Positions 12,430-56,700 of a DNA stretch of 64,000 bases are shown piece by piece. Made by a program: the position numbers and the translations under genes. The notes beneath the pieces were generated by a model. The model was not told the DNA's origin. It saw nothing but the letters and a program-made list of their open reading frames with translations, and did no database searches. Source of the DNA: Heterodontus francisci (Eukaryota); assembly GCF_036365525.1 (NCBI RefSeq), contig NC_090405.1, forward strand, positions 24,986,001 to 25,050,000. Reading direction: 5' to 3'. Every line of letters starts with the position of its first letter. Within the stretch, counting starts at the first letter, position 1.

Positions 12430-13617
12430 ATCTGTTTAAAAAGGGAGTGAGGGATAGACCGAATAATTACAGGCCAGCCAGACTAACCTCAGTAGTGGGC
12501 AAATTATTGGAAACTATTCAGAGCGACAGGATAAACTGTCACTTAGAAAGGCACAGATAAATCAAGCATAGTCAGCATGGATTTGTTCTGGGAAGATCCT
12601 GTCTGACCAACTTGATTGAATTTTTTGAAGAAGTAACAAGGAAGATAGACGAGGGTCGTGCAGTTGATGTAGTCTGCATGGACGTAAACGTGCGGGTCAC
12701 GATCCAAGAAATTTGCAGATGACACAAAGATTGTCCATCTGGTAAATAGCATGGAGGATAGCTGTAGGCTGCAGAAAGATATTGATGATCTGGTCAGGTG
12801 GGCAGAAAAATGGCAAATGGAATTCAACCTGGAGAAGTGTGTGGTGAAGCATTCGGGGAGGTCAAACAAGGCAAAGGAAGACACGATTAATAAGAACATG
12901 CTGATAGGTGTAGAGAAAGTGAGGGACCTTGGAGCAAATGTCCGCAGATCCCTGAAGGTAGCAGGACAGGTCGATAATGTGGTCAGAAGGTATGTGGAAT
13001 CCTTTTCTTTATGAGCCGAGGTATAGTATATAAGAGCAGGGAGGTTGTGCTGTAACTGTATAAATCATTAGTCAGGCCACAACATGAGTACTGTGTGCAG
13101 TTGTGATCATCTCATTACAGAAAGGATGTAATTGCACTAGAGAGGGTACAGAGGAGATTTACGAGGATGTTGCCGGGACTGGAAAAATGCAGCTATGAGG
13201 AAAGATTGGATAGGCTGGGGCTGTTCTCCTTGGTACAGAGAAGACTGAAATGTACAAAATTTTGAGGGGTCTGGATAGAGTTGAGGTGAAGGGTCTATTC
13301 ACCTTAGCAGAGAGATCAGTGACTAGGGGCATAGATTTTAAGTGATTGGTAGAAAGGTTACAGGAGAGAAGAGGAAATGTTTTTTCAACCAGAGGGTGGT
13401 GAGGGTCTGGAACTCACTGCCTGAAAGGGGAGTTGAGACAGAAACCTTCAACTCATTCAAAAGGAGTCTGGATATGCACCTCAAATGCCATAATCTGCAG
13501 GGCTGCGGACCAAATGTTGGAAGGTGGGATTCGAATGGGTGGAATGTTTTTCATCTGGCACAGACACAATGGGCCAAGTGGCCTCTTTCTGTGCCTTCAA
13601 CTTTCTATGATTCTATA
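12430..13617 (+). mobile_element. CR1 LINE fragment with an internal RT deletion; mirror of 53715-54910
   Basis: RT and C-terminal motifs (WAEKWQMEFN, FFNQRVVRVWNSLP); tail TTCTATGATTCTAT. Confidence 0.88.
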
Positions 13618-14251
13618 AATTACCCAGCTGCTTTAGTGGAATTTGAACTCATGTCTTTGGACCATTCGTGGAGACTTCTGGATTACTCGTCCTGTAAAGT
13701 AACCACAAAATCACCATACCTCTGAGATTTTTTACTGGTTTGTAATGTGGATTTCAGTATACACAAATGGAATTGATAATCTGTTTCACTCTGATAATGT
13801 ATGAATTTTTTGACTGGTAAATAATATGTATCTCTGTCTTTGTATTTTTCAATTCCGCAGTCTGGATGAGTTCTGTACCGGCATCTAATTTATATCACAG
13901 TTTACACTTCATATCAGTTTTGCTCAATCTAATACTGTATGTGATTTTTGGATTGGCAATGTTTAGATCACGGTGTGGGTGAGTTCTGAACTAGTATCTA
14001 ATTTGTGTCTCAGGTTACAGTATCTTTCAGCACCTTTGAAGCTTTCACTGTAAAAAATGTTGGACTTATATGTCACTCAAGGTACACTATGGGGATATTT
14101 AAACATCCTTTATCATGGGTGTGAGCTTTGGGTATGGTATTTAATTTAAATATCAGGCTATATCATTAGGTCAGATTCTGTGCCATTCAATCAGTACCGT
14201 GGGCCAATTCTATCTGATATTTAATTGCTAGCTAAGTCTGCATTATATTTA

Positions 14252-15776
14252 ATAAAAGCAAAATACTGCGGATGCTGGAAATCTGAAACAAAAACAAGAA
14301 ATGCTGGATTCACTCAGCAGGTCTGGCAGCATCGACATGGTCCATCTCTGACACTTCCCTTCCCTTCCTCGACTTCTCTGTCTCCATCTCTGGGGATAGG
14401 TTGTCTACTAATATCCATTATAAGCCCACTGACTCCCACAGCTACCTCGACTACACTTCTTCACACCCTACCTCCTGTAAGGACTCCATTCCATTCTCCC
14501 AGTTTCTCCGTCTCCGACGCATCTGCTCTGATGATGCTACCTTCCATGACGGTGCTTCTGATATGACCTCCTTTTTCCTCAACCGAGGATTTCCCCCCAC
14601 TGTGGTTGACAGGGCCCTCAACCGTGTCCGACCCATTCCCCGCACCTCTACCCTCACCCCTTCCCCTCCCTCCCAGAACCGTGACAGGGTTCCCCTTGTC
14701 CTCACTTTTCATCCCACCAGCCTCCATATCCAAAGGATCATCCTCCGCCATTTTCGCCACCTCCAGCGTGATGCCACTACCAGTCGCATCTTCCCCTCCC
14801 TTCCCCTGTCAGCATTCCGAAGGGATCGTTCCCTCCGCGACACCCTGGTCCACTCCTCCATTACCCCCACCACCTCGTCCCCGTCCCAGGGCACCTTCCC
14901 TTGCAATCGCAGGAGGTGTAATACCTGCCCATTTACCTCCTCTCTCCTCAGTATCCCAGGCCCCAAACACTCCTTTCAGGTGAAGCAGCGATTTACTTGT
15001 ACTTCTTTCAATGTAGTATACTGTATTCGCTGCTCACAGTGTGGTCTCCTCTACATTGGGGAGACCAAGCGCAGACTGGGTGACCGCTTTGCGGAACATC
15101 TCCGCTCAGTCCGCAAGCAGGACCCTGAGCTTCCGGTTGCTTGCCATTTCAACACTCCCCCCTGCTCTCATGCTCACATCTCTGTCCTGGGATTGCTGCA
15201 GTGTTCCAGTGAACATCAACGCAAGCTCGAGGAACAGCATCTCATCTACCGATTAGGCACACTACAGCCTGCCGGACTGAACATTGAGTTCAATAATTTC
15301 AGAGCATGACAGCCCCCCACTTTACTTTCATTTTTAGTCATTTTTAGTTATTTTTTCTTCCTTTTTTTTTGCATTCCTTTTTACATTTTTTGCATTTATT
15401 TCATTTCATCTTAGTTTGTTCAGTTTGCTTACCCACTGTTTTTTTCAGGTTGTTTTTCTTCAGGTTTGCACTTGCTGATGTTCTATATTCAGTATATTCA
15501 CACCTAATCTGTACTAATGCTTTGTCTTTCAAAACACCATTAACATATTGTTTGCCTTTGCTCCGTGACCTTTTGGTCAGCTATGTGGCCTGGTCCAATC
15601 TGCACCTTCTCCTTTGTTATCTCTTGCCCAACCCCCACCTCACTTGTTTATAATCTGTGACTTTTCTAATATTTGTCAGTTCCGAAGAAGGGTCACTGAC
15701 CCGAAACGTTAACTCTGCTTCTCTTTCCACAGATGCTGCCAGACCTGCTGAGTGAATCCAGCATTTCTTGTTTTTG
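14252..15776 (+). mobile_element. 5'-truncated copy of the same PLE with a short inverted pseudo-LTR (14252-14332); 14-bp TSD
   Basis: 14333-15776 is near identical to the reverse complement of ~8400-9855. CTGCATTATATTTA occurs at 14238-14251 and 15777-15790. The paralogous empty site (~51951-51964, reverse) has one copy. Confidence 0.93.
15678..15714 (+). ncRNA. Minimal type I hammerhead ribozyme-like motif in PLE 3' UTR
   Basis: AGTT-CCGAAGA-A-GGGTC(ACT)GACCC-GAAA-CG-TT-AACT: stem I AGTT/AACT, core boxes, stem II hairpin, palindromic AACGTT stem III. Confidence 0.7.
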
Positions 15777-16302
15777 CTGCATTATATTTAGACTGACACA
15801 TTGCATTTCAATCTGCTAGTGGGTGTGATTTTGACCTGGGATTGAGGTATCTGACTGTCAATGGGACTGAATTGGGGTGAAATGGAAACAACCTCTTTCT
15901 CTCCTGCTTTGTTTGATTGTTGGATTGAAAATGTGCCTCTGGAACTTGGGATCAATGTGAGCCTGACTACTTCTGCAGTCTGAGACTAGGGACCTGATGA
16001 ACTGTCTGTGCCTCTGTACTCTGAGTGATAATGTACCTACTGTGTGAGAGAGGAGCTGGCTGCACAGTTCCTTGTGCCTCAAGTGCAGGAACCATCACAA
16101 TTCCTTCAAGTATCTGCCTGCATGAAGAAAAAGTATATCTTCTAACTCAAGAACAGATGCGGTGCAAAATATCAGATGAATTAAATTTCTCAATGAATAA
16201 TCATTAATAATAGCCACAAATGTAAACCAGTGTCAGTATTTGCCTCCACCGAAGTACTGAAGCTCCCAGCTCCTGCATCACAAGTGTTCTGGGCAGATCC
16301 AT

Positions 16303-19300
16303 AGAGTTATAGAGTCGTACAGCATAGAAACAGGCCCTTCAGCCCACCGCGTCCATGCCGACCATAATGCCCATCCATACTAATCACACCTGCCTGCATT
16401 AATTCCATATCCCTCTATGCCTTGCTCATTCAAGTACCTGTCCGGATGCCTCTTAAATGTTGCTACTGTTCCTGCCTCCACCACCACCTCAGGCAGCTCA
16501 TTCCAGATACCCACTACTCTTTGTGTGAAAAATTTACACCTTTGATCCTCTTTAAACCTCCTCCCTCTCACGTTAAATCTATGCCGTCTAGTTTTAGTCA
16601 CCCCTACCATGGGAAACAGACTCTGGCTATCCACCCACCTATGCCTCATAATTTTATATACCTCTATCATGTCCCCTCTCAGTCTCCTTCGCTCCACGGA
16701 AAACAGACCCAGCCTATCCAATCTCTCTTTATAACTCAAGCCCTCCAAACCAGGCAACATCCTTGTGAATCTTTTCTGCACCCTCTCTAGCTTAATCACA
16801 TCTTTCCTGTCGTGTGGCGACCAGAACTGCACACCGTACTCCAAATGCAGCCTAACCAACGTTATGTACAACTGTAACATGTTGTCCTAACTCTTGTACT
16901 CAATGCCTCAGTCGATGAAGTCAAGCATGCCATATGCCTTCTTCACCATCCTGTCTACCGGTGTTGCTACTTTCAGGGAACTATGTAGTTGCACCCCAAG
17001 GTCTCTCTGCTCAACAACACTCCCCAAGGCCCTGCCATTCACTATATATGTCCTGCCCTGGTTTAACTTCCCAAAATGCATCACTTGACACTTGTCTGCA
17101 TTAAATTCCATTTGCCAATCCCTTGCCCACTTTCCCAGTTTATCTATATCCTGTTGTAACCTTAGACAACCTTCTTCACTGTCCACCATACCACCAATTT
17201 TGGTGTCATCTGCAAACTTACTAATCATGCCCCCTACATTCACATCTAAGTCATTAATATATATGACAAACAGAGGGCAAAGCACCGATCCCTGCGGCAC
17301 ACCACTGGTCACCGGCCTCCGATCGGAAAAACAACCCTCCACTACCACCTTCTGCCTCCAATCACCAAGCCAATTTTGTATCCAATTTGCTAGCTTACCC
17401 TGGATCCCATGTGTTCGAACCTTCCGGACCAGCCTACCTTGCGGGGCCTTGCTAAAGTCCATGTAGAAAACGTCCATCGCTCTGCCCTCATCAATCCTCT
17501 TGGTCACCTCCTCGAGAAACTCAATCAAATTCATGAGACATGATTTCCCACGCACAAAGCCATGCTGACTATCCCTAATCAGACCATGCCTTTCCAAATG
17601 CATATAAATCCTGTCTCTCAGAATCCCTTTCAATAACTTTCCCTCCACTGATGTAAGGCTCACCGGCCTGCAGTTCCCTGGCTTATCCCTGCTGCCCTTC
17701 TAAAATAAAGGCACAACATCAGCTATCCTCCAGTCTTCCGGTACCTCAGCCGTGGCTAACGATGATACAAAAATCTCTGCCAGGGCCCCAGCAATCTCCT
17801 CCCTTGCTTCCCATAGCATCCTAGGATACACCTGGTCAGACCCTGAGGATTTATCCACCTTAATGCACTTCAAAACCTCCAACACCACCTCCTTTGTAAT
17901 GTTGATATGCTTCAGGATATCGCTGTTCCCTCGCTTGAACTCACTAGATTCCATGACCTTCTCCACGGTAAATACGGACGAAAAATATTCATTTAAGACC
18001 TCGCCCATTTCCTGTGGCTCCACACATAGATTGCCACACTGATCCTTAAGGGGACCTACTGTCTCCCTAGCTACCCTCTTACTCTTAATATACTTATCGA
18101 ATCTTTTAGGATTCTCCTTTATAATATCCAGGGAAATCTCATGGCCCCTTTTCAAAGAACAAAGAACAGTACAGCACAGGAACAGGCCATTCGGCCCTCC
18201 AAGCCTGCGCCGATCTTGATGCCTGCCTAAACTAAAACATTCTGCACTTCCGGGGACCGTATCCCTCTATTCCCTTCCTATTCATGTATTTGTCAAGATG
18301 CCTCTTAAATGTCGCTATCGTACCTGCTTCCACCACCTCCCCCGGCAGCAAGTTCCAGGCACTCACCAACCTCTGTGTAAAGAACTTGCCTCGCACATCC
18401 CCTCTAAACTTTGCCCCTCTCACCTTAAACCTATGTCCCCTAGTAACTGACTCTTCCACCCTGGGAAAGAGCTTCTGACTATCCACTCTGTCCATGCCGC
18501 TCATAACTTTGTAAACCTCTATCATGTCGCCCCTCCACCTCCGTCGTTCCAGTGAAAACAATGAGTTTATCCAACCTCTCCTCATAGCTAATGCCCTCCA
18601 GACCAGGCAACATCCTGGTAAACCTCTTCTGTACCCTCTCCAAAGCCTCCACGTCCTTCTGGTCGTGTGGCGACCCTCCTAATTTCCTATTTCCTTCTTA
18701 CGTGTAGTCCTACATCCCCGATACTCCTCGAGGGACTCACTCGATCCCAGCTGCCTATACCTGACATGTGCCTCCTTCTTTGTCCTGACCAGACCCTCAA
18801 TATCCCTCGTCAACCAAGGTTCCCTAAACTTGCCAGCCTTGCCCTTCCATCTAACAGGAACATGCTGGCCCTGAACTCTTCCTATCTCACTTTTAAAAGC
18901 CTCCCACTTGCCAGACGTCCCTTTACCTGTAAACAACCTCTCCCATTCAACTTTTGAGAGTTCCTGTCTGATGCCATCAAAATTAGCCTTCCCCCAATTT
19001 AGGGCTTCAACCTGAGGACCAGTCCTATCCTTTTCCATAACTGTCTTGAAGCTAATAGAGTTATGGTCACTGATCCCAAAGTGCTCCCCCACTGACACAT
19101 CAACCACCTGCCCATCCTCATTTCCAAAGAGGAGGTCGAGAGTAGCCCCTTCTCTCGTAGGGCCATCCACATACTGCTTCAGAAAACTATCCTGGACACA
19201 TTTAAAAAATTCTTCCCATCTGATCCCTTAGCACGAAGGCAGTCCCAGTCAATATGAGGGAAGTTAAAATCACCTACTATTACAACCCGATAATTCCTAC

Positions 19301-19686
19301 ACCTATCTGTGATTTCCCTACCTATATGCTCCTCCACTTCCCTCTGACTATTGGGGGGTCTATAGTATAATCCCATCAAAGGAATCACCCCTTTCTTATT
19401 TCTAAGTTCTACCCATATGGCCTCACTGGACATTCACCCCGGGATATCCTCTCTAAGTACTGCCGTGATGTCTTCCCTAATCAATAGTGCAACTCCCCCT
19501 CCTCTCTTACCTCCACCTCTGTCACACCGGAAGGATCGGTACCCCGGAACATTGAGCTGCCAGTCCTGCCCATCCCTCAACTACAATTCCGTAATAGCTA
19601 TAATATCACAATCCCATGTACCGATCCATGCTCTGAGTTCATCTGCCTTACCTGTAAGGCTTCTTGCATTAAAATAAATGCAGTTT
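16303..19686 (-). mobile_element. CR1 LINE (ORF2 EN+RT, decayed), probable TSD ATCCAT
   Basis: ORF fragments [36 protein letters not shown] at 16297-16302 and 19687-19692. Empty site at ~51425 in the other arm. Confidence 0.92.
18153..18672 (-). mobile_element. Nested 5'-truncated CR1 of a different subfamily
   Basis: A second CR1 C-terminus (RGDMIEVYK...FFTQR) with a GTTCTTT-repeat tail, interrupting the host CR1. Confidence 0.88.
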
Positions 19687-20049
19687 ATCCATCCAGACAA
19701 AACACTGCACTGGGATTGTTCCAACTGCTCTATGCTCTACATATATTTCCAACCATCTTGCTTCATATGAATGAAAGATAAATAAAGTCCGATATGTATA
19801 TCTCTCAATTCCTTTCTCCCCATACACTTGTTCCACCTTCCCTGCATCGATACTATTTGCCTCAACCTCTCCCTGTGATAGCAAATCCCAGCTTCTAACC
19901 ATTCACTACATAAATACATATTTCATGAATTCCTCATTGGTTTTATGAATGGCGATTTTATATTTTTGGCTCTTGTTTCAGACACCACCACAAAAGTAAA
20001 CATGCCTCCTTGTACTTTATAAAAGCCGTTCATTATTTCCTCACTTTTT

Positions 20050-21160
20050 GCATTTGTTCATGGGATGTAGGCATCACTGGCTATGCCAGCATTCATTGCC
20101 CATTCCAAATTTCCCTAAACAAAGTAGTAGTGAGCTGCCTTCTTGAGCCGCTGCAGTCCTTGAGATGTCGGAACACCAACAGTGCTGTTTGGAAGGGAGT
20201 TCCAGGATTTTTACCCAGCGACAATGAAGGAATGGCGATATAGTTCCAAGTCAGGATGGTTTGTGGCTTGCAGGGGAACTTGGTGTTCCCATGCATCTGC
20301 TACCCTTGTCCTTTTAGGTAGTAGAGGTTGCGGGTTTGGAAGGTGCTGTCGAAGGAGCGTTGGTGAGTTGCTGCAGTGCATCTTGTAGATGGTACACACT
20401 GCTGCCACTGTGCATCGGTGATGAATGTTGAAGGTGGCGGATGGGGGCAATCAAACAGGCTACTTGAGTGTTGTTGGAGCTGCACTTATCCAGACAAGTG
20501 GAGAGTATTGCATCACACTCCTGACTTGTGCCTTGTAAATGGTGGACAGGTGTGGGGAGACAGGAGGTGAGTTATTCGCCACAGAGTTCCTAGCCTCTGA
20601 CCTGCTGTTGTAGCCACAGCATTTATGTGGCTGGTCCAGTTCAGTTTCTGGTCAATGGTAACCTCCAGGATGTTGATGGTGGTGGATTCAGTGATGGTAA
20701 TGCCATTGATCATCAAGGAGAGATGATTAGATTCTCTCTTGTTTGAGATGGTCATTGCCTGGCACTTATGTGGCATGAATGTTACTGCCACTCATCAGCC
20801 CAAGCCTGGATGTTGACCAGGTCTTGCTGCATCTGATCATGGGCTATCTGAGGAGTCACGAATGGTGCTGAACATTGTGAATATCGCCACTTCTGGCCTT
20901 GTGATGGAGGGAAGGTCATTGCTGAAGCAGCTGAAGATGGTTGGGCCTAGAACACTAGCCTGAGGAACTCCAGCAGTAATGTGCTGTGACTGAGATGATT
21001 GACCTGAACAACCACAGCCATCTTCCTTTGTGCTAGGTCTGACTCCAACCAGCGGAGAGTTTTACTCCTGATTCCCATTTACTCTAGTTTTGCTCGGGCT
21101 CCATGGTACCATACACGGTCAAAGGCTGCCTTGATGTCAAAGGCAGTCACTCTCACCTCA
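20050..21160 (-). mobile_element. CR1/L2-group LINE of a second family, RT to 3' end; mirrored with an internal deletion at 50640-51060 (+)
   Basis: DIKAAFDRVWYHG; the mirror copy has LGPTIFSCFINDLP and FTDD. 3' end matches 4266-4437. Confidence 0.8.
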
Positions 21161-21179
21161 CAATGCAGTGTTGCTTTAA

Positions 21180-21320
21180 CCCTAAAACAAAAGCAAAATT
21201 CTGCAGCTGCTGGAAATTTGAAAAAAAAAACAAAAATGCTGCAAATACTCAGCCCTTCAGGCAGCAAATGTGGAGAGTGAAACACAATTAAGGTTTCAGG
21301 TCTGTGTCCTTTCATCTTAC
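21180..21320 (-). mobile_element. Old PLE-derived short element (degenerate hammerhead + 3' end); mirrored at 50480-50600 (+)
   Basis: Similarity to the PLE terminus (aaagcaaaat..gctggaaat..actcagc..ggcagca..tgtggagag). Confidence 0.7.
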
Positions 21321-21361
21321 GATATGTTTTATGTCCTGGTATGTAAGGTCAGGTGATAGGC

Positions 21362-22320
21362 GGGGTATAAAGAGTGGTGAGCCGAGGCCCGAGACCAGAA
21401 GCAGTGACAGTGTCGGTGGCGAGAGGAGCTGGGGTATAAAGAGCAGTGAGCCAAGGCCCGAGACCAGAAGCAGTGTCAGTGTCGGTGGCGAGAGGAGCTG
21501 GGGTATAAAGAGCAGTGAGCCGAGGCCCGAGACCAGAAGCAGTGACAGTGTCGGTGGCGAGAGGAGCTGGGGTATAAAGAGCGGTGAGCCGAGGCCCGAG
21601 ACCAGAAGCAGTGACAGTGTCGGTGGCGAGAGGAGCTGGGGTATAAAGAGCAGTGAGCCGAGGCCCGAGACCAGAAGCAGTGACAGTGTCGGTGGCGAGA
21701 GGAGCTGGGGTATAAAGAGCAGTGAGCCGAGGCCCGAGACCAGAAGCAGTGACAGTGTCGGTGCGAGAGGAGCTGGGGTATAAAGAGCAGTGAGCCGAGG
21801 CCCGAGACCAGAAGCAGTGACAGTGTCGGTGGCGAGAGGAGCTGGGGTCTAAAGAGCAGTGAGCCGAGGCCCGAGACCAGAAGCAGTGACAGTGTCGGTG
21901 CGAGAGGAGCTGGGGTATAAAGAGCAGTGAGCCGAGGCCCGAGACCAGAAGCAGTGACAGTGTCGGTGGCGAGAGGAGCTGGGGTATAAAGAGCAGTGAG
22001 CCGAGGCCCGAGACCAGAAGCAGTGACAGTGTCGGTGGCGAGAGGAGCTGGGGTATAAAGAGCAGTGAGCCGAGGCCCGAGACCAGAAGCAGTGACAGTG
22101 TCGGTGGCGAGAGGAGCTGGGGTATAAAGAGCAGTGAGCCGAGGCCCGAGACCAGAAGCAGTGACAGTGTCGGTGGCGAGAGGAGCTGGGGTATAAAGAG
22201 CAGCGAGCCGAAGCCCGAGACCAGAAGCAGTGACAGTGTCGGTGGCGAGAGGAGCTGGGGTATAAAGAGCAGCGAGCCGAGGCCCGAGACCAGAAGCAGT
22301 GACAGTGTCGGTGGCGAGAG
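21362..22320 (+). repeat. Tandem array of about 14 x 69-bp units (GGGGTATAAAGAGCAGTGAGCCGAGGCCCGAGACCAGAAGCAGTGACAGTGTCGGTGGCGAGAGGAGCT)
   Basis: Period 69 (21362, 21431, 21500...). Near-identical units, two of them 68 bp. Confidence 0.97.
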
Positions 22321-22420
22321 CTCTGTTCAGTTCTGTGGACTTGCTTGACCAGCAATAATTGAAGTGTGACATCACAGGAGAGCCGGTAAGTGATTGGTGG
22401 GTATTTCTTCCATGTCTCTG

Positions 22421-22759
22421 TTTTTTTTTAGATTAGAGATACAGCACTGAAACAGGCCCTTCGGCCCACCAAGTCTGTGCCGAACATCAACCACCCATTT
22501 ATACTAATCCTACACTAATCCCATATTCCCAACAAACATCCCCACCTGTCCCTATATTACCCTACCCCCTACCTATACTGGTGACAATTTATAATGGCCA
22601 ATTTACCTATCAACCTGCAAGTCTTTTGGCTTGTGGGAGGAAACCGGAGCAAACCCACGCAGACACAGGGAGAACTTGCAAACTCCACACAGGCAGTACC
22701 CGGAAGCGAACCCGGGTCCCTGGAGCTGTGAGGCTGCGGTGCTAACCACTGCGCCACCC
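22421..22759 (-). mobile_element. V-SINE (HE1-like) in CR1 5' UTR
   Basis: Same family sequence. Confidence 0.88.
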
Positions 22760-37753: not shown

Positions 37754-38221
<468 letters not shown>

Positions 38222-39161: not shown

Positions 39162-39198
39162 GTTGTGTTTGGGATGTTTTTCAGTCCATTGTGCAGTT

Positions 39199-43865: not shown

Positions 43866-44200
43866 GGGTGGCACAGTGGCGCAGTGGTTTGCACCGCAGC
43901 CTCACAGCTCCAGCGACCCGGGTTCAATTCTGGGTACTGCCTGTGTGGAGTTTGCAAGTTCTCCCTGTGTCTGCGTGGGTTTCCTCCCACATGCCAAAGA
44001 CTTGCAGGTTGATAGGTAAATTGGCTGTTAAAAATTGCCCCTAGTATAGGTATGTGGTAGGGAAATATAGCGACAGGTGGGGATGTGGTAGGAATATGGA
44101 ATTAGTGTAGGATTAGTATGGATGGGTGGTTAATGGTCGGCACAGACTCGGTGGGCCGAAGGGCCTGTTTCAGTGCTGTATCTCTAAACTAAACTAAAAA
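43866..44200 (+). mobile_element. V-SINE (HE1-like) with a stuttered 5' junction
   Basis: Same family sequence, tail (CTAAA)n. Confidence 0.88.
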
Positions 44201-45745: not shown

Positions 45746-46101
45746 ATTTTTTTTAGATTAGAGATACAGCACTGAAACAGGCCCTTCGGCCCACCGAGTC
45801 TGTGCTGACCAGCAGCCACCCATGTATACTAATCCTACACTAATCCCATATTCCTACCAAACATCCCCATCTGTCCCTATATTTCCCTACCACCTACCTA
45901 TACTAGTGACAATTTATAATGGCCAATTTACCTACCAACCTGCAAGTCTTTTGGCTTATGGGAGGAAACCGGAGCACCCGGAGAAAACCCACGCAGACAC
46001 AGGGAGAACTTGCAAACTCCACACAGGCAGTACCCAGAATCGAACCCGGGTCCCTGGAGCTGTGAGGCTGCAGTGCTAACCACTGCGCCACTGTGCCGCC
46101 C
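45746..46101 (-). mobile_element. V-SINE (HE1-like)
   Basis: Same family sequence; empty site at ~43146. Confidence 0.88.
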
Positions 46102-46309
46102 TAATTGTTCTGTGAGGGTGGGAATCACATGTTTTTTTCAATCCCTGGTGCTGTGTGTGAGCATGGGATTCATTCTGTACCTGTCACTGGTACTGCGTGC
46201 ATCTGTGGGATTAATTCTATACCTTTCAGTCACTGCAATTGTGGATGAAAGTGGGATTCATTCTAGGTCCACCACACACTGGTTGAATGTGTGTGTGCAA
46301 GAAGATAAG

Positions 46310-47395
46310 AAGATACAAAATAGGAGCAGGAGAAGACCATTTGGCCCATCGAGCCTGCTCCGCCATTCAATAAGATCATAGCTGTTCTGATTGTGGCCTT
46401 AATTCCACTTTCCTGCCTGCGCCCAAAACCATTGACTCCCTTGTAGATCAAAAATCTGTCTGTCACAGCCTTGAATATATTCAATGACCCAGCCTCCACA
46501 GTCCTCTGGGGAACAGAATTCCAAACATGAACAACCCTCTGAGAGAAGAAATTCCTCCTCATCTCCTTCTTGAATGGGAGACCACTTATCCTGAAACTGT
46601 GGTCCCTAATTCTACTTTTCCCCACAAGTAGAAATATCTTCTCAGCATCTCCCCGGCCAGCAACTGAGAATCTTGTAGGTTTCCAGAAGATCAACTCTCA
46701 ATGTTCTAAACTCCAGTGAGTATAGGCCCAACTTGCTCAACTTTTTCTCATATGACAATCCAACATCCCAGGAATCAGCCTAGTGAACCTTCTCTGAACT
46801 GATTCCAATGCAAGTATATCCCTCCTTAAGTAAGGAGACCAAAACTGTGTGGAGTTGGGATGTCACTAATGCCCTGTAAAGTTATAGCAAAACTTCCTTA
46901 CTTTGATACTCCGTTCCCCTTGCTAAAAATACCAACATTCCATTTGCCTTCCTAATTACTTGCTCTACCTTCATGCTAACTTTTTTGTAATTCATGTACC
47001 TGGACACCCAGATTCCTTGGTACAGCAGCATTCTGCAGTCTGTCACTGTGTAAATAATATTCTGTTTTTCTATTCTACCTGCCTAAGTAGACAATCTCAC
47101 ATTTTCCCATATTATACTCCATCTGCCAAACGTTTGCCCGCTGACTTAACCTATCTATATCTCTTTGCAGACACATTGTGTCCTCCTCACAACTTGTTTT
47201 CCTACCTATCTTTGTACCATCCATAAATTTGGCAACAGTACACTCAGTCCCTTCATGCAAGTTATTAATATAGACCATAAATAGTTGAGGCCCCAGCACT
47301 GATCCCTGTGACATTCCATTAGTTACAGTTTGCCAATCTGAAAATGCTCCATTTATCCCCACTCTGTTTTCTGTGAGTTAGCCATTCCCATATCC
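46310..47395 (-). mobile_element. Old CR1 3' fragment (palindrome-arm counterpart of 33130-34228)
   Basis: [17 protein letters not shown]; FFSQRVVHVWNS. Confidence 0.85.
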
Positions 47396-48144
47396 ATGTG
47401 CGTGTAGTTTTCAGTTTGTATCTGTCAGTGCCTGGTACTCTATGTGAGTTTTGGACTCATTCTCAATGTCTCACTGCAACTATTTGTGTGTTAGGTTGCT
47501 TTAGATGACTCAGGCTGCGATACTGTGAGTGAGTGCAGTAATCAACCTATAACTTTCAGCATCTGGCACTGAGCATGTGTATCAGAATCACTCTGTATCT
47601 GTCAGTATCTGGTACTCTGTGTGAGTGGGGGATTCATGATATAACCTTCCGTCCCTGGGACTGTTTGCAAGTCTGGATTCATTCTACATAAAATGTCAGC
47701 AATGCAACAGGCCACAGATGTGATAGGTTTTAAGCAGACAATATGTTTGAGGTTTTACCTGATATTAAATATCTGTCACTGTGAACACAATAGTGAAAGA
47801 TAATGTATCCTTCAATCTGATACAGGATTGGTGTGCAAGTGTAACTCAGGCTGTACTAATCAATTTGATCAGTGCCATTCAGTCTGACTGTGAGTGAGAA
47901 TCTTGGACTTGCATGTAAAATGAACTCAATCTGGAATTGTACAGTATCTTCCAACTGACACAGTATGAGGTTTTCGGACTGGTATGTTATTTATAGCTCA
48001 GACTACACAAATCAAATTTATATTGTAACTTTTATTTTCATAATCCAGATGAGTTTTAATGTATATGTCTGGACACATTATGGCAATTAATACTGATAAA
48101 CTCAGAACGTGTTGGGCTGGTATTTAACTTGAATCTCAGAGTAT

Positions 48145-48484
48145 ATTTTTATATTATTTAGAGATACAGCATTGAAACAGGCCCTTCGGCCCACTGAGTC
48201 TGTGCCAACCAACAACCACCCATTTATCCTAATCCTACATTAATCCCATATTCTCTCCCACATCCCCACCATTCTCCTACCACCTACCTACACTGGGGGC
48301 AATTTACAATGGCCAATTAATCTATCAACCTGCAAGTCTTTGGAGGTGGGAGGAAACCGGAGCAGCCGGCGGAAACCCACGCAGACACAGGGAGAACTCG
48401 CAAACTCCGCACAGGCAGTACCCAGAACTGAACCCGGGGGTCGCTGGAACTGTGAGGCTGCGGTGATAACCACTGTGCCGCCCA
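48145..48484 (-). mobile_element. V-SINE (HE1-like)
   Basis: Same family sequence. Confidence 0.88.
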
Positions 48485-49108
48485 TAAACACACATAATGC
48501 CTCCATTATTGAGGTTAATTCTGTAACTTTGAAACGGGAACCATAATTTGTAGCTGAGGTTGCACTATCGTGGGATTGGCACAGTGATAATTTGATAGTT
48601 GGGTGAGAATTTGGACTGGGATTTATGAATCTACCTGTCAGTGGTACTGAGTTGGGGTGACATGGAAACAACGTCTGTCTCTCCTGCTCTGTTTGATTGA
48701 GGGATTGAAAATGTGTCTCTGGATCTATTTCTGCTGTCTGAGACTGTGGAACTGATGACCTGTCTGTGTCTCTGCGCTCTGTGAGTGATAATGTACGGAC
48801 TGTGTGTGAGAAGGAGCTGGTGACACTCTTCCTTGTAACTTGGGTGGAGGAAACATCACATTTATTCTGGTTCATTCAATTATTTGCCTGTTTGAACAAA
48901 AGTATGTTTATAACTGAAATACAGGGAAGGTAGAACATGCAGGATTTTAAAGAATTTAATCTCTCAAATAATAATGATGAACGCCCGCAAAGGAAGCCCA
49001 GCCATACAAATATTATCATTGTTTGACTGCACTGCAGTAACAGGTTCTTCCCATTCCGTCTCCTTTCCCTGTCCACACACAGCCCGAGAATGGCCTCTCC
49101 CTTCCCCC

Positions 49109-49363
49109 ACTCACTCCATGTTCCGGGACCTGTTCCTGCTCCATTCCACCTCTTACAAACAGCCCCCGCCTCCCCCTGAACTTGCCCCGGACTCGATGCT
49201 GATCTCTGAGTCCATCTGCGGACACGCTCCCAAAGCGATGTGCTGCTGGAAGGAGGCTGCTGTTTGCTCCCTTTCCCCGGGACTGGGATCTCTCCATTCG
49301 CGGCTGTTTTAAACCATCTCCTTCCGCTCACAGGCGGTGCTGGGGGAGGGGAGCGCAGGCGCA
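49109..49363 (-). promoter_or_regulatory. Inverted copy of the CpG promoter / candidate first exon
   Basis: Same motifs; ATGGA|GTGAGT at 49119-49109. Confidence 0.55.
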
Positions 49364-52009
49364 GATTTCTGCAACAATTCAGCAAACAGAAACATGGAAA
49401 ATTTCCGGCGCAGAATGAGGCCATTCGGCCTATCGTGTCCGCGCCAGCGCAAAGAGAGCGATTCAGCCTCATCCCACAGTTTCTTGTTATTGGACAGTGA
49501 AGTGTGGAAACAGAAGCGGACAGTCAGGATGTGGGGAGTTACACAAAGAGAATCTATTATAGGCACCAGGTGAGAAGTGTGAAGGACACATTTTAAACAG
49601 CGGCTGTTTGGTTTCGCTTGAACGGTTAGACCATGGGAGCGGGAACTGGAAATCTGACCTGTGTAAAAGTCCCTGTTCCGTCGGTCAGTCCCATTCATGG
49701 CCCAGTGGATTGTTTCTGGATGTCATTTAATTGTTGTAAAATGGCCAAAGCCCCTGGTATGCAGTAGCTGGGGGCTGCAGGACTGCAGTGGAATCAGACA
49801 CTGACTCTGTTTGTGTTGCTGGGTTTCCTTTGTGATTGTTCACAATGATTATTCATTGAAAAATTGTTTTGGTCACTTTTGTATCTTCTACTACATCTCT
49901 TCCTGAATTATAATAAATACTTTTTTCTTTCCATAGGCAAATACTTGAAGGAAGCAGAATAAATGTAGTGATTCCTCGACACAAGGGGAAGTGAAGCCAG
50001 CTCCTCACACACAGTAAGTACAGTATCAACTCACAGAGAGCAGAGACATCAGTTCCACAATTACCGACAGCAGAAGTAGTCAGACCGGCATTGATCCCAA
50101 GTTCCAGAAACATTTATTCAATCCAACAGTCACTCAGAGCAGGAAAGACTGAAGTTGTCTCCATTTCACCCCAACTGACCAGTAGATACATCAATCCCAG
50201 TCCAAAATCACACCCACTATCAGATTGCAAGGCACTGTGTCACTCTCACAAGTGTGCAGCCTGAACTACAAATTCAATGTCAGATACAGCAGACAAACAG
50301 AACCTGATTGTAAAGTACAGAATTTATCCCAATAATGTACCCAGACTGCAGACTGAGCTCCATGTTACACACCACTCCACAAATCTCACAAATAGTCAGA
50401 GTGGAAGACACAGTATTAATTCCATTACTGCAAACTGAATGAACCTGACCATTACATACCAGGACATAAAACATATTGTAAGATGAAAGGACACAGACGT
50501 GAAATGTTAATTCTGTTTCTCTCTCCACATACGCTGCCTGAACTGCTAAGTATTTCCAGCAATTTTGTTTTTTTTAATTTCAGATTTGCAGCATCTGCAG
50601 AATTTTGCTTTTATTTTAGAGTTAAAGAAACATTGCCTTGTGAGGTGAGAGTGACTGCCCTTGATATCAAGGCAGCTATTGACCATGTATGGCATCAAGG
50701 AGCCCAAGCAAAACTGGAGTAAATGGGAATCGGGCAAAACTCTCTGCTGGTTGGAGTCATGCCTAGCACAAAGGAAGATGGCTGTGGTTGTTCAGGTCAA
50801 TCATCTCAGTCTCAGGACATTACAGCTGGAATTCCTCAGGCTCATGTTCTAGGCCCAACCATCTTCAGCTGCTTCATCAATGACCTTCCCTCCATCACAA
50901 GGCTGAAAGTGGAGATGTTCACTGATGATTGTGCAATGTTCAGCACCATTCATGACTCCTCAGATACTGAAGCAGCCCGTGCCCAGATGCAGCAAGACCT
51001 GGACAACATCCAGGCTTAGGCTGATAAGTGGCAAGTAACATTCACGTCACATAACAAATGAAAAAAGTGAGGAAATACTGAAGGGCTTTTATGGAATACA
51101 CGGAGACATGTTTCCACTTGTGGTGGTGTCTGAAACAAGAGCCAAAAATATAAAATCATCATTCCTAAAGCCAATGAGGAATTCATGAAAATTGTATTTA
51201 CGCAGTGAATGGATAGAATCTGGAATTTTCTATCACATGGAGAGATTGAGGTGATGCACTTAAGGGGAGGTGGAACAAGTGAGCAAGTGTATGGGGAGAA
51301 ATGAATTGAGCAATATACATATCAGGCTTTATTTTTCTTTATTTGTGCAAATGATGCAGGATGGCTGGAAATATTGTGTAGAGCATAGAGCAGTTGGGAC
51401 GATCCCAGTGCAGTGTTTTGTCTGGATGGATCTGCCCAGAATACATGTGATGCAGGAGCTGGGAGCTTCAGTACTTCAGTGGAGGCAGATACTGACACGG
51501 GTTTTCAATTGTGTGTGTTCTTAATAATTATTAATTCAGAAAGTAAATTCACATCTTTGATATTTTGCACCTCACCTGTTCTTGAGTTATGAGATGTATT
51601 TTTTCTTCATACAGGCAAATACTTGAAGATATTGTGATGAATGTGATGGTTGCTGCACTCGAGGCACAAGGAACAGTGCAGCCAGCTCCTCTCACACACA
51701 GTAGGTACATTATCACTCAGAGTACAGAGGTACAGATGGTTCATCAATTCCCTAGTCTCAGACTGTAGAAGTAGTCAGGCCCACATGGATCCCAAGTTCC
51801 AGAAACACATTTTCAATCCAACAATCAAACAAAGCAGGAGAGAAAGAAGTTGTTTCCATTTCGCCCCAATTCAGTCCCACTGATAGTCAGATACATCAAT
51901 CCCAGGTCAAAATCACACCCACTAGCAGATTGAAATACAATGTGTCAATCTAAATATAATGCAGACTTAGCTAGCAATTAAATATCAGATAGAATTGGTA
52001 CACGTTACT

Positions 52010-52871
52010 GTTTGTTATTGATTCCATCAATATCGGCGACCACACTCTGGAAGTGGTTCAAGAGTTCACCTACCTAGGCTCAACTATCACTAGTAACCTA
52101 TCTCTCGATGCAGAAATCAACAAGCGCATGGGAAAGGCATCTGCTGCTATATCCAGACTGGCCAAGAGGGTGTGGGAAAATGATGCACTGACACGGAACA
52201 CAAAAGTCCAAGTTTATCAAGCCTGTGTCCTCAGTACCTTGCTCTACAGCAGCAAGGCTAGACAACGTACATCAGCCAAGAGTGACATCTCAACTCATTC
52301 CATATTTGCTGCCACCGTAGAATCCTTGGCATCAGGTGGCAGGACTGTATCTCCAATGCAGAAGTCCTCGTGACGGTCAGCATTCCCAGCATATACACCC
52401 TACTGAGCCAGCGGCGCTTGAGATGGCTTGGCCATGTGAGCCACATGGAAGATGACAGGATCCCCATCTCGCATTGTGCAGGAACTCGTCACTGGTATCA
52501 GACCCACCGGCCATCCATGTCTCCGCTTTAAGGACGTGTGCAAACGCGACATGAAGTCCTGTGACACTGACCACAAGTCATGGGAGTCAGTTGCCAGAGA
52601 TTGCCAGAGCTGGCGGGCAGCCATAAAAGCGGGGCTAAAGAGTGGCGAGTCGAAGAGATTTAGCAGATGGCAGGAAAAAAGACAGAAGCACAAGGAGAGA
52701 GCCAACTGTGTAACAGCCCCGACAACCAATTTTATCTGCAGTGCCTGTGGAAGAGTTTGTCACTCTAGAATTGGCCTTTCTAGCCACTCCAGGCGCTGCT
52801 TCACAAACCACTGACCGCCTCTAGGCACTTACCCATTGTCTCTCGAGACAACGAGGCCAAAGAAGAAGAAG
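52010..52871 (+). mobile_element. 5'-truncated RTE-clade LINE
   Basis: VQEFTYLGSTIT, LSTLLY, LRWLGHV, C-terminal CSACGRVCHSRIGLSSH, (AAG)n tail. Empty site at ~14195 in the other arm. Confidence 0.88.
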
Positions 52872-53109
52872 ACTGATTGATTGGCACAGAATCTAACCGA
52901 ATGATGTACCCTGAGATTTAAATTAAATACCATACCCAAAGCTCACACCCATTGATTATAAAGGATGTTGAAACATCCCCATGGTGTACCCTGAGATACA
53001 AGTCCAACATTCATTACAGTGAAAGTTTCAAAGGTGCTGAAAGATATTGTAAGCTGAGACACAAATTAGATACCAGTTCAGAACTCACCCACACTGTGAA
53101 ATGGAAAGA

Positions 53110-53370
53110 TACAGAATCAATTCCATTAGTGTAGATTGGTCTAAACATTATATACCATTCTAAAAACTCATACAATACCAAACTGAAATACAGTATCAAT
53201 ACTATTCATGTAGATTGATCTGAACATTGTATATCATTCTAAAAACTCATACAGTATCAATTCCATGAGTGCAGATTGATCTAAACATTACATACCATTC
53301 TAAAAACTGATACAATATCAAACTGAAATACAGTATCAATTCCATTACTGTAAATTTATCTAAACATTGC
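53110..53370 (+). repeat. About 4 copies of a 60-80-bp degenerate tandem unit
   Basis: CAGTATCAATTCCAT..GTAGATTGATCTAAACATT..CATTCTAAAAACTCATACA recurs at about 53111, 53191, 53252 and 53331. Confidence 0.7.
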
Positions 53371-53609
53371 CAGTCCAAAAATCACATACAGTATCAGACT
53401 GAGCAATGCTGATACGAAGTGTAAACTGTGATGTAAATTAGATGCCTGGGTAGAACTCACCCAGACTGCAGAATTGAAAAATACAGTTGACTGTGATCCA
53501 CATTATTTACCAGCCAAAAACATCTCATACATGATCAGAGTGAAATAGATTATCAATTCCATTTGTGTAGACTGAACTCCACATTACAAACCAGTAAAAA
53601 CTCTCATAC

Positions 53610-53712
53610 AGAGGTATGGTGATTTTGTGGTTACATTAAAGGACGAGTAATCCAAAAGTCTCCACTAATGGTCCAGAGACATGAGTTCAAATTCCACTGC
53701 AGCAGCTGGATA
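53610..53712 (+). mobile_element. tRNA-derived SINE head remnant; mirrored at 13620-13722 (-)
   Basis: GGACGAGTAATCC...GAGTTCAAATTCCAC resembles the head at 4170-4262. Confidence 0.55.
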
Positions 53713-53714
53713 AT

Positions 53715-56700
53715 TTATAGAATCAAAGCAAGTTTATGGCACAGCAAGAGGCCATTTGGCCCATCATGTCTGTGCCAGATGAAAAACTTTCCACCCATTC
53801 TAATCCCACATTTCAGCATTTGGTCGGTACCCCTGCAGATTACGGCATTTGAGGTGTATATCCTTTTGAATGAGCTGAGGGTTTCTGCCTCAACTACCCT
53901 TTCAGGCAGTGAGTTCCAGACACCCACCACCCTCTGGCTGAAAAAATGTTTTCCTCATCTCCCCTGTAATCTTTCTGCCAATCACTTTAAATCTATTCCC
54001 CGAGTCACTGATTTCTTTGCTAAGGTAAACAGGCCCTTCACTTCAACTCTATCCAGACTCCACAAAATTTTGTACATTTCAGTCAGATCTCCCCTCAGCC
54101 TTCTCTGTGCCAAGGAGAACAGCCCCAGCCTATCCAATCTTTCCTCACAGCTGCATTGTTCCAGTCCCAGCAACATCCTCGTAAATCTCCTCTGTACTCT
54201 CTCTAGGGCAATTACATCCTTTCTGTAATGAGGTGCTCAGAACTGCACACAGTACTCAAGTTGTGGCCTGACTAATGATTTATACGGTTCCAGCATAACC
54301 TCTCTGCTCTTATATCTATCCCTCGGCTAATAAAGGAAAGGATTCCATATGCCTTCTTACCACCTTATCGACCTGTCCTGCTACCTTCAGGGATCTGTGG
54401 ACATTTACCCCAAGGTCCCTCACTTTCTCTACACCTTTCAGCATTTTCCTATTAATTGTGTATTCCTTTGCCTTGTTTGACCTCCCCAAATGCATCACCT
54501 CACACTTCTCTGGATTGAATTCCATTTGCCATTTTTCTGCCCATCTGGCCAAACCATGAAGATCTTCCTGCAGCCTACAGTTATCCTCCTTGCTATTTAC
54601 CACATGGCCAATCTTTGTGTCATCTGCAAACTTCTTGATCATGCCTCCTACATTTAAGTGCATGTAGACTACATCAGCTGCACTGCCCTCAACTATCTTC
54701 CTTTTTAATTCTTCAAAATTTTGATCAAGTTGGTCAGACAAGATCTTCCCTTAACAAATCCATGCTGACTATCCTTGATTAATCTGTGCCTTTCTGAGTG
54801 ACATTTTATCCTGTCTCTCTGAATAGATTCCAATAATTTTCCCACTACTGAGGTCAGACTGACTGTCCTGGAATTATTCGGTCTAGCCCTCACTCCCTTT
54901 TTAAACAGAGGTACAATTTTAGCAGTCCTCCAATCCTCCAGCACAACACCTGTATCCAGTGAGGTCTGAAAAACGATGGTCAGACCTTCCGCTATTTCCT
55001 CTCTTGCTTTTGAAGAGCCTGGGGTTCATTTCATCCGGCCCTGGTGATTTATCAATTTTCAAATAAGCTAATTCCATTAATATGTCCTCTCTCCCTCTGT
55101 TGATCACATCTAATACTTCACACCCCTCTTCGTTATCTACAGTATCTGCATCATCCCCCTCTTTTGTGAAGACAGATGCAAATTATTCATTAAGAACAAT
55201 GCCAGCATCTTCTGCCTCTACACATAGGTTGCCTTTTTGGTCTTTTCTGTGCCCAACTCTTTCCTTAGTTCTCCTTTTACTCTTACTGCATTGATAAAAC
55301 ATTTTTGTGTTCACCTTGATTTTGATTGCCAATATTCTTCCATGCCCGCTCTTAGTTTCCCTAATTTCGATGTTGATTCCGCATCCCCATTCCCCCCCCC
55401 CCGCTCCACTCCACATTCTATACCCCTCTCGGCTTACTGTAGTATTGAGTTCTCTATGTCGGGCATAATTTTTCCTTTACTGTCTTATCATACCCATAAG
55501 CTCCTTGACATCCATGGGGCTCTAGATTTGGCCGTCCCACCCTTTTTCTTTGAGGGAACATGTTGACTCCGAACCCCTTGAATCTCCCCTTTGAATTCTT
55601 CCCACTGCTCTGACACTGATTTACCTTCAAGTACCTGTTTCCAGTCCACTTTTGCTAAATCACTCTTCAGCTTAGTAAAGTTGGCCTTGCCCCAACTGAG
55701 AACTTTAACTCCTGTTCTATCCTTGTCCTTTAATAATTATGTTAACTCTGACTGAATTATGATCACTCCCACCAAAATGCTCTCCCACTGCCACTCCTTC
55801 CACCTGCCCATCTTCATTTCCTAAAACTACATCTAAAACTTCACCCTCTCTTGTTGCACTTGCTACATATTGGCTAAAAAAAAGTTCTCCTGAATGCATC
55901 ACAAGAATTCTGCTCCCTCAATTCCTTTCACACTAAAAGTATCCCAGTTCATGTTGGGGTGGTTAAAATCCCCTACTGTTATTGCCCTATTGTTCTTGCA
56001 CTTCTTAGAGATTTGCCAACATATCTGCTCTTCTATCTCCCTCTGACTGTTTGGGGGTCTTTAGTACACTCCCAGCAGTGTGATAGCACCGTTTTTTTTC
56101 CTTCGCTCAATCTATACGGCCTCATTTGATAAACCTTCCAACATATCATTCCTTCTCACAGCTGTATTAGTTTCTTTGACCAAAATTGCCACTCCCCCTC
56201 CTTTCTTATCCTCCTCCCTATCGTGTCTGAAAACCCTGTAACCAGTAATGTTGAGCTGCCATTCCTGTCCCTCCTTAAGCCATGTTTCTATAATAGCTAT
56301 GATATCATACTGCTACGTGTCTATCTGTGCCCTCAGCTCATCTGCTTCGTTTTCTATACTCCTTGCGTTGAACTTGATACTCTTGAGCACTGCCAAACTT
56401 TAAAAAAAATTTCTAACCTTTGTTTCCTCTGTCTTCCAGACTCATCCATTAATTTTCTGCCTTCCATTTTCATTTTTAATTTTGTCCCATCTGAGTCTAC
56501 CTTCCAGTCCCCACCCCCCTGCCAAATGAGTTTAAACCCTCCCCAACAGGACTGGAAAATGTCCCACAAGGAACTCCATCCAGGCTCTGTTCAGGTGTAA
56601 CCCATCCGAGCTGTCCCAAGAATCTAAAGCCCTCCCTCCTGCACCATCTTTCCAGCCAGGCATTTATCTGTCTTATCCTTCTATTCCTGTACTCATTTTT

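What the first reader, a model, noticed from the sequence alone, without database searches (positions are those of the whole stretch)
12430..54910. Histone mini-cluster at the centre of a ~42-kb diverged palindrome
Seen: the arms align in reverse complement and in order. Pairs are 35069-35771/39122-39823, 33060-34240/46310-47470, 32460-33060/47470-48060, 28215-28470/48570-48820, 27032-28090/49345-50440, 20770-21355/50445-51050, 19690-20055/51050-51430, 15777-16300/51430-51965, 13965-14250/51965-53100 and 12430-13960/53350-54910. Each arm has private insertions (left: PLE, three CR1s; right: RTEs, SINEs, a tandem duplication), so each supplies the empty site for the other. H2A and H3 lie in the ~3.35-kb spacer. 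Inference: an old inverted duplication whose inner breakpoints fall just after the H2B U7-binding element.
Basis: seen in the sequence. Interest (0 to 1): 0.7.

Follow-up and report, generated by a model that had tools for sequence, protein, structure and literature searches.

The report
Palindromic module of shark histone megacluster
Four histone genes sit between two old, mirror-image copies of a DNA block that recurs hundreds of times beside histone H2B genes in this shark-like genome; the mirror arms have drifted about 10% apart, only the two H2B genes have been kept alike, by copying between gene copies, and the pairing likely arose by reshuffling of that block rather than by one fold-back event.

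Summary
The palindrome is real. Ten of 13 inverted matches form one ordered chain (0 of 20,000 random placements did as well). The arms are 90.0% identical over 7,069 aligned bases. It is not a one-off structure. The arms belong to an H2B-linked duplicon: one arm 26-mer has 666 matches in the genome. The cassette has at least 43 copies on 15 contigs, inside nested duplications of 110 to at least 280 kb. The flanks beyond both inner edges follow H2B at hundreds of other places (384 and 411 matches), so the edge after the U7 element is probably where conversion stops, not a founding breakpoint. The right arm is closer to other arm copies than to the left arm, although a left+right clade is not rejected. 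Gene conversion is shown: the right H2B promoter carries left-arm alleles at 6 of 6 diagnostic sites. A second H2B palindrome family exists. Known kind (mammalian HIST2 inverted repeat, core-duplicon mosaics), at an unreported scale. The scan earlier noted a marsupial histone palindrome and this genome's histone-hitting LINE.

The parts
12425..35773 (+). Left arm of the palindrome: the most diverged lineage of the H2B-linked duplicon, cut at its outer end
   Evidence: cut shown by comparison with the C28 copy
39119..57426 (-). Right arm; pairs with the left arm to 54915 in this window and to 57426 in the C28 and C1806 copies
35316..35693 (+). Left H2B, intact, 125 aa
36498..36887 (+). H2A, intact, 129 aa, with stem-loop and U7 element at 36913-36958
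37754..38164 (-). H3, intact, 136 aa
39199..39576 (-). Right H2B, intact; 2 amino-acid and 0 synonymous differences from the left copy
39577..39823 (-). Right H2B promoter carrying a left-to-right gene-conversion tract (mirror of 35069-35315)
   Evidence: 6 of 6 diagnostic sites lack the right-arm allele, while 8 of 9 flank sites keep it in all 5 related copies
35726..35771 (+). Histone 3' stem-loop plus U7 element of left H2B (mirror 39122-39166); inner edge of arm homology
   Evidence: Rfam RF00032
35774..36497 (+). Flank F1 (H2B to H2A spacer), shared with a much larger module family
   Evidence: 384 exact 23-mer matches; 43 for the cassette-specific 24-mer
38492..39118 (-). Flank F2 behind right H2B; elsewhere it leads to H2A, H3 or a fold-back
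   Evidence: 411 matches with up to 2 mismatches
49481..49850 (+). Conserved core of the arm (mirror about 27610-27941; third copy 4585-4856): candidate promoter and first exon facing away from H2B
   Evidence: 0.8-5.4% mean pairwise difference among 20 copies against about 10-15% at 48850-49150; 666 matches; function inferred
1..5950 (+). Third arm copy (distal part; begins about 2.1 kb left of the window), same orientation as the left arm
40161..40889 (-). RTE-like insertion whose junction is shared by the right arm and 5 other arm copies, absent from the left arm
   Evidence: family label by my reading, not by a library hit
41618..46756 (+). Tandem duplication inside the right arm (41618-43798 and 44200-46756; 86-91%)
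14252..15776 (+). Young Penelope-like (GIY-YIG) insertion in the left arm, 14-bp target duplication
16303..19686 (-). Nested CR1-like LINE insertions in the left arm, 6-bp target duplication
21355..27031 (+). Left-arm insertion block: 69-bp minisatellite (21362-22320), SINE, CR1-like LINE
28476..31915 (+). Left-arm insertion block: SINE and CR1-like LINE
8356..12428 (-). Young Penelope-like elements at the point where the left arm is cut

Best explanation
The palindrome is two old members of a high-copy H2B-linked duplicon lying in inverted orientation around H2A and H3, likely brought together by ectopic recombination at or near H2B during an old burst of duplication rather than by one fold-back of the left arm. 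Shown: the arms are real inverted paralogues, about 10% diverged, decaying independently; the duplicon occurs in hundreds of copies with two alternative flanks behind H2B; the H2B promoter, coding region and 3' UTR are homogenised by gene conversion while the arms are not; and the whole palindrome was later copied at least 43 times within nested segmental duplications, mostly in a lineage whose H2A start is destroyed by a LINE. Inferred: H2B is the exchange point that joins any arm to either flank; the donor for conversion is usually the opposite H2B of the same cassette; the conserved core of the arm is a promoter with small exons, perhaps of a C2H2 zinc-finger transcription unit. The palindrome itself likely has no function; it is a by-product that makes the region prone to further rearrangement.
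For: Collinear chain and 90.0% identity. Arm core 666 matches, F1 384, F2 411, H2A starts 1,065. Seven F1-bearing modules compared have arms 6.8-9.4% from the right arm and about 10-12% from the left arm in the CR1 segment (5 of the 7 cover it), and their F1 spacer is 11.3-13.5% from the left F1 but 7.8-8.6% between the neighbouring copy U and the other six, so spacer and arm split from the left lineage together. The right arm is 7.4-9.4% from the other arm lineages and 11.2% from the left arm in the proximal segment. Shared RTE-like junction in 6 of 6 non-left arms. A recombinant exists: the C1570 cassette has a right arm that groups with copy U (4.1%, bootstrap 99-100), not with the window's right arm (7.6%). 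Conversion: 0 of 58 fourfold sites differ; 6 of 6 promoter sites switched, 8 of 9 flank sites not; within-cassette promoter identity 98.4-99.2% in 5 window-lineage copies against 92.1-94.3% in 11 others; an allele found only in the two H2B genes of one cassette (L072, 35666). Amplification: 43 exact matches on 15 contigs, 25 + and 18 -; C28 and C1806 copies 94-99% alike over the 110 kb fetched; C1960 and C334 copies 98-98.7% alike at -130, +100 and +150 kb.
Against: The base of the arm tree is nearly star-shaped, and the AU test does not reject a left+right clade (p 0.215 proximal, 0.232 distal); a faster rate on the left lineage could mimic its outgroup position. In the distal segment left-right distance (8.9%) is no larger than left-to-other distances (8.0-10.6%), and in the three-way comparison with the third arm left-right is the smallest distance (9.1% against 10.7% and 9.6%). 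The left arm's lack of the RTE lies in a 45-bp repeat array, where a clean later deletion cannot be excluded. One shared allele (L039, 35107) also occurs in an unrelated right arm, and with 43 copies the conversion donor could be another cassette. The copies examined were the best hits to the left promoter, not a random sample. No spliced transcript from the arm core was seen.
Confidence: 0.72

Rival explanations
1. Mother palindrome: one old inverted duplication made the left and right arms at this locus (with a break just after the U7 element, or with a longer repeat later shortened); the right arm then gained the RTE and seeded the other arm copies, some after flipping of the spacer through H2B.
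For: Left+right clade not rejected; left-right is the smallest of three distances with the third arm; the inner edge is sharp; a true fold-back of arm-H2B with a 330-bp spacer does occur in this genome, so the process is available.
Against: A flip predicts that F1 in right-like modules split from the left F1 only as long ago as their arms split from the right arm (7-8%); observed 11.3-13.5%. Both flanks follow H2B at hundreds of places. The spacer here is 3.3 kb of two unrelated flanks, not a self-copied stretch as in the fold-back family.
Confidence: 0.22
2. A giant foldback or cargo-carrying transposon: the arms are long terminal inverted repeats and the unit moves with its histone genes.
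For: At least 43 dispersed copies in both orientations on 15 contigs.
Against: Shared sequence runs far beyond the arms and ends at different places in different pairs (-180 kb for C1806/C334, +150 kb for C1960/C334); 32 of 43 cassettes have an unrelated marker 45-115 kb upstream; 3 copies are broken or recombinant inside the arms or cassette (L019, L025, C1570); no transposase-like ORF among the window's 53 ORFs of 90 aa or more by my reading (only 5 non-histone ORFs plus 2 with no hit were scanned against Pfam); arms only 90% alike.
Confidence: 0.03
3. Chance alignment of dispersed transposon copies, or an assembly artefact.
For: Much of each arm is old LINE and SINE sequence; the copy 228 kb upstream is 99.5-99.9% identical and could be an uncollapsed haplotype.
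Against: 0 of 20,000 random placements match the chain; shared junctions and empty sites; non-repeat blocks align; the same layout is assembled on other contigs with different insertions; arms at 90% cannot come from chimeric reads.
Confidence: 0.03

Closest known systems
Mammalian HIST2 (histone cluster 2) inverted repeat (PMC9526256; passages seen)
   Same: Replication-dependent histone genes inside a large inverted repeat, with paired paralogues and pseudogenes.
   Different: As described in those passages it is one repeat at one locus, with several genes duplicated in the arms. Here only H2B is in both arms, the arms are 10% diverged repeat-rich DNA, and the palindrome is itself present in at least 43 copies.
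Primate core duplicons, GOLGA on chromosome 15 (PMC6436712; passages seen)
   Same: A 14-kb-scale block around which larger duplication mosaics form, found in palindromic configurations and at rearrangement breakpoints.
   Different: Nearly 40 copies there against hundreds here; here the block carries a histone gene. That the arm drives the duplications, and is not just carried along, was not shown.
Diverged autosomal palindromic segmental duplication SD12A1 of mouse (PMC13688818; abstract seen)
   Same: Arms about 93% identical with no sign of ongoing arm-to-arm conversion.
   Different: Megabase scale and single-locus; here 42-56 kb, multi-copy, and with conversion confined to one gene.
Jumbled vertebrate histone clusters; concerted versus birth-and-death evolution (PMC13525598; sections 12 and 16, passages and supplement search seen)
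   Same: Irregular gene order with pseudogenes.
   Different: The review links jumbled clusters to birth-and-death evolution; here conversion tracts and pseudogene amplification are both visible in one module family. No shark or chondrichthyan term was found in its text or two supplementary files.
Y-chromosome palindromes and chicken H4-H2A-H3-H2A-H4 inverted duplication (both recalled; the chicken paper was not found)
   Same: Mirror arms around a spacer; conversion between arms.
   Different: Y arms are recalled as over 99.9% identical along their length; here conversion does not reach the arms.

Membership tests
Inverted segmental duplication (palindrome) | Collinear reverse-complement arms around a unique spacer, beyond chance | tested here: met
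Inverted segmental duplication (palindrome) | Shared junctions and reciprocal empty sites, not just the same repeat families | tested here: met
   clean for the PLE and the CR1 nest, partial for two right-arm inserts, unclear for three blocks
Single fold-back inverted duplication | The two arms are each other's closest relatives | tested here: inconclusive
   distances and the RTE junction say no; AU test does not reject
Single fold-back inverted duplication | Sequence beyond the inner edge is private to this junction | tested here: not met
   F1 384 and F2 411 matches, behind H2B in other modules
Y-type converting palindrome | Arm-wide homogenisation (over 99%) | tested here: not met
   90.0% in arms; longest identical runs 24-51 bp outside H2B and the conserved core
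Gene conversion between histone paralogues | A bounded tract in which one copy carries the other's diagnostic alleles, including non-coding and silent sites | tested here: met
Replication-dependent histone genes | Intronless core-histone ORF with 3' stem-loop and U7 element | tested here: met
   Pfam Histone for 4 of 4; RF00032 for both H2B and H2A, not reaching the threshold for H3, where a stem-loop is visible at about 37707-37727
Replication-dependent histone genes | S-phase expression of these copies | not testable with these tools
   no read evidence over the histone genes was obtained
Core duplicon | A block shared by many mosaic duplication blocks with different flanks, in direct and palindromic arrangements | tested here: met
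Core duplicon | The block is transcribed and enriched at rearrangement breakpoints | tested here: inconclusive
   contig cover from runs only guessed to be RNA; 2 of 3 broken copies break in H2B or the arm, the third in a LINE
Foldback or giant DNA transposon | Fixed termini with target-site duplication, shared by dispersed copies | tested here: not met
   shared extent differs between pairs and runs over 100 kb past the arms

The most novel reading that the evidence does not exclude
The shark histone region, over a thousand H2A genes spread over tens of megabases, was built by an H2B-anchored, transcribed core duplicon of more than 600 copies that repeatedly seeds palindromes and uses H2B as a recombination hub: a non-primate counterpart of GOLGA/NPIP cores, in which conversion of active genes and mass amplification of dead ones run side by side.
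Probability: 0.33. Interest if true: 0.62.

Novelty: new variant of a known kind. Interest (0 to 1): 0.38.

Why it matters
The palindrome alone is an ordinary old inverted duplication. Its setting is the more useful result. The genome holds at least 1,065 H2A starts of one 20-mer type, far above the histone gene numbers I recall for mammals, and a recent review of over 250 species shows no shark entry in its text or supplements. With dozens of dated copies of one cassette, conversion tracts can be mapped to the base and compared between intact and LINE-killed lineages. That makes the concerted versus birth-and-death question directly testable inside one genome, and shows how histone copy number can rise without selection for dosage.

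Tried and rejected
Giant transposon: rejected. Chance repeat alignment: rejected. Conversion in the distal arm: two identical runs of 149 and 136 bp lie in a stretch conserved among all arm lineages, so constraint explains them, and conversion there is not needed. Rfam found nothing for the conserved core (one match at E 0.98). Contigs of four runs were laid on 46200-58000: two runs guessed to be RNA have contigs starting at 49541 and raised depth at 49352-49745, but contigs cannot show level or strand, the runs share one sample with the DNA run, one of the two shows equal ratios further out, and the listed contigs cross the predicted intron unspliced; weak hint only. Expression of the histone genes and read support across the centre remain open. 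The link from the arm's small exons to the C2H2 zinc-finger exon about 19 kb right of the window is not shown. AU test did not reject left+right. A strictly histone-specific LINE: rejected, as its tail has 10,307 matches and 0 of 30 flanks read on C1 were histone starts by eye. Many amino-acid differences in the H2B of C28-type copies are shared tail variants also seen in copy U, so I did not count them as decay. Sparse probes at -250 and +220 kb matched in 0 of 6 pair comparisons; offset drift could hide a match, so no outer boundary is claimed. Paper searches found no description of a shark histone palindrome or duplicon; subscription journals are mostly outside the library, and bioRxiv supplements (for 10.1101/2025.06.08.657570) were not seen. 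The place search for look-alike windows returned nothing.
Full report
Observation. Self-comparison recovers all listed pairs in reverse order. Ten of 13 inverted matches of at least 200 bp and 82% form one chain of 8,064 bp; none of 20,000 random placements reached it. Over 13 arm blocks, 7,069 aligned columns are 90.0% identical (K2P 0.108); the H2B promoter and coding region are 99.2% and 99.5% identical. The centre is H2B> H2A> <H3 <H2B, all four with intact frames and Pfam Histone matches. Arm homology stops 2-3 bases after the stem-loop/U7 motif on both sides. The left PLE and the CR1 nest have clean target duplications with empty sites opposite; three other blocks do not. The organism is a cartilaginous fish by inference from genome size and repeat content; earlier scan notes call it a shark, which I did not check.

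The palindrome is itself multi-copy. The window lies at G000:C35:24986001-25050000. A 24-mer from the H2B-H2A spacer has 43 exact matches on 15 contigs, 25 on + and 18 on -; this is a lower bound. All 25 loci fetched from the best hits carry the cassette or its left part with flanks at 95-99.8%. The whole window recurs 228 kb upstream at 99.5-99.9%. Copies on C28 and C1806 match each other at 94-99% over all 110 kb fetched. Sparse probes show C1806/C334 shared at -180 and -130 kb and C1960/C334 at -130, +100 and +150 kb, at 98-99%; other pairs did not match (8 probes per... six offsets, three pairs each: 6 of 18 comparisons matched). So the duplications are nested and of unequal extent, not one element with fixed ends. 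In the C28 copy the palindrome is longer, 56.5 kb; the window's left arm is cut at 12425 beside a young PLE. Three copies are broken: L019 ends in the right H2B 3' UTR, L025 joins a LINE in H2A to a LINE copy in the next left arm, and C1570 holds an 86-kb tandem unit with a different right arm. Of 29 cassettes examined, 19 have the H2A start displaced by a LINE insertion, 9 (the window among them) have it intact, and 1 ends at a contig end; 6 of 29 carry a premature stop. These were best hits, not a random sample.

The arms are members of a large family. A third arm copy lies at window -2148 to 5950 and a proximal piece (U) at -39999 to -36826. A 26-mer in the arm core has 666 matches with at most one mismatch. 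Of 16 regions fetched around other H2A genes, 6 hold arm-H2B>H2A modules, on C21, C28 and C35. The spacer behind left H2B (F1) has 384 matches and the flank behind right H2B (F2) 411. F2 leads to H3 here, to H2A elsewhere, and to a fold-back H2B> <H2B palindrome with a 330-bp centre and its own pair of arms; 20 such pairs are among the first 100 matches listed. An H2A start 20-mer has 1,065 matches.

Relationship of the two arms. In the proximal segment the right arm is 7.4-9.4% from other lineages and 11.2% from the left arm; in the distal segment it is 6.1-9.6% from others and 8.9% from the left arm. An RTE-like insertion has the same junction in the right arm and 5 of 5 other arms checked and is missing from the left arm, though inside a 45-bp repeat array. 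F1 in right-like modules is 11.3-13.5% from the left F1 but about 8% between U and the other six, matching their arm distances; this argues against a late flip of the spacer. Against my reading: the tree base is star-like, the AU test does not reject left+right (p 0.215, 0.232), and with the third arm left-right is the smallest distance. So the order of events is inferred, not shown. The inner edge is best read as the limit of the homogenised gene between two old flanks; H2A homology between modules likewise ends 8 bases after its U7 element.

Gene conversion. The two H2B frames differ at 2 codons, both non-synonymous, and at 0 of 58 fourfold sites, where about 6 would be expected at 10% divergence (inference). 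Using 12 other right-type copies and 17 left copies to define diagnostic sites, the 5 window-lineage right copies keep the right allele at 8 of 9 flank sites but at 0 of 6 promoter sites, 35077-35178 in left coordinates. Within-cassette promoter identity is 98.4-99.2% in those 5 and 92.1-94.3% in the other 11 with data. Exchange also ran the other way: two left copies carry the right 3' UTR alleles, and one allele is found only in the two H2B genes of L072. Outside H2B and the conserved core the longest identical runs are 24-51 bp, so conversion does not reach the arms.

Arm core. Positions 49500-49850 differ by 0.8-5.4% among 20 copies, against 10-15% at 48850-49150. The stretch is CpG-richer than its surroundings and is followed by repeated exon-like units with acceptor and donor motifs (read by eye). 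A C2H2 zinc-finger exon with an acceptor lies about 19 kb right of the window on the same strand. A promoter with small 5' exons is my inference; contig evidence was weak and Rfam gave nothing.

Mechanism. Shown: multi-copy arm, two alternative flanks, a recombinant cassette, bounded conversion, nested amplification. Inferred: in an old burst, ectopic recombination at H2B placed an RTE-bearing arm-H2B-F2 module opposite a left-type arm-H2B-F1-H2A module; the arms then decayed; conversion kept H2B alike; block duplication multiplied the result, mostly after LINE damage. Confidence 0.72; mother palindrome 0.22; transposon 0.03; artefact 0.03.

Comparison. It works like the HIST2 inverted repeat (PMC9526256, passages) placed in a core-duplicon mosaic (PMC6436712, passages), and like mouse SD12A1 in having diverged, non-converting arms (PMC13688818, abstract). 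It is not a Y-type palindrome (recalled; arm-wide identity not met) and not a foldback transposon. Large histone clusters are noted for a stingray (10.1101/2025.06.08.657570, passages), without this structure in the passages seen. The 250-species review has no shark term in text or two supplements (PMC13525598). Searches found no report of this arrangement. Family labels PLE, CR1, RTE, SINE and Tx1 rest on my reading plus Pfam RVT_1, GIY-YIG (below cut-off) and endonuclease hits, not on a repeat library.

Verdict. Real, well explained, a new variant of known kinds. Interest 0.38.

Noticed in passing
L036:5499-7386; G000:C28 right H2B; window-relative -9008, -33796 and -24291: A 5'-truncated LINE (RVT_1; Tx1-like by recall and by earlier notes) sits at the start of H2A (three junction types, 76 matches), H2B (about 10-bp target duplication) and a degenerate H4, although its tail has 10,307 matches genome-wide. 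Earlier scan notes report the same preference.
   Followed up: partly
L141-L142; G000:C35:18899001-18930000: Second palindrome family: H2B> <H2B with a 330-bp centre and arms of the same duplicon, a clean fold-back; 20 pairs among the first 100 matches listed.
   Followed up: partly
L111-L116: Recurrent divergent H2A pairs about 7 kb apart with a degenerate H4 between them and short inverted flanks at 86-90%.
   Followed up: partly
G000:C1570:178766-634331: Six cassette copies, five in a tandem array of about 86 kb; the right arm groups with copy U, as expected from recombination between direct arm copies.
   Followed up: partly
G000:C35:24750001-24830000 (L001-L008): The whole window recurs 228 kb upstream at 99.5-99.9%: a very recent tandem duplication or an uncollapsed haplotype.
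   Followed up: partly
window 8881-11631 (-): Intact 916-aa Penelope-like ORF with 96-99% identical partial copies at 8356-9138, 11660-12428 and 14252-15776: a recently active family.
   Followed up: no
window 49481-49850, 27610-27941, 4585-4856: Strongly conserved arm core with exon-like units on both sides (48545-49038 on -, 49761-50290, 51452-51991, 61668-62204 on +); possible two-way promoter.
   Followed up: partly
L014:9120-9998: C2H2 zinc-finger exon with about ten fingers, carried in the same duplication block.
   Followed up: partly
L010:3647-3781 (-): U2 snRNA-like fragment next to a long copy of the histone-hitting LINE.
   Followed up: no
G000:C2:3443300 and C2:178878321: LINE-tail/H2A-start junctions far from the histone regions; no histone frame was found in the 10 kb fetched around the second, so perhaps short 3' carry-over.
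   Followed up: partly
window 21362-22320: 69-bp minisatellite, 13.9 copies, 98% matches.
   Followed up: no
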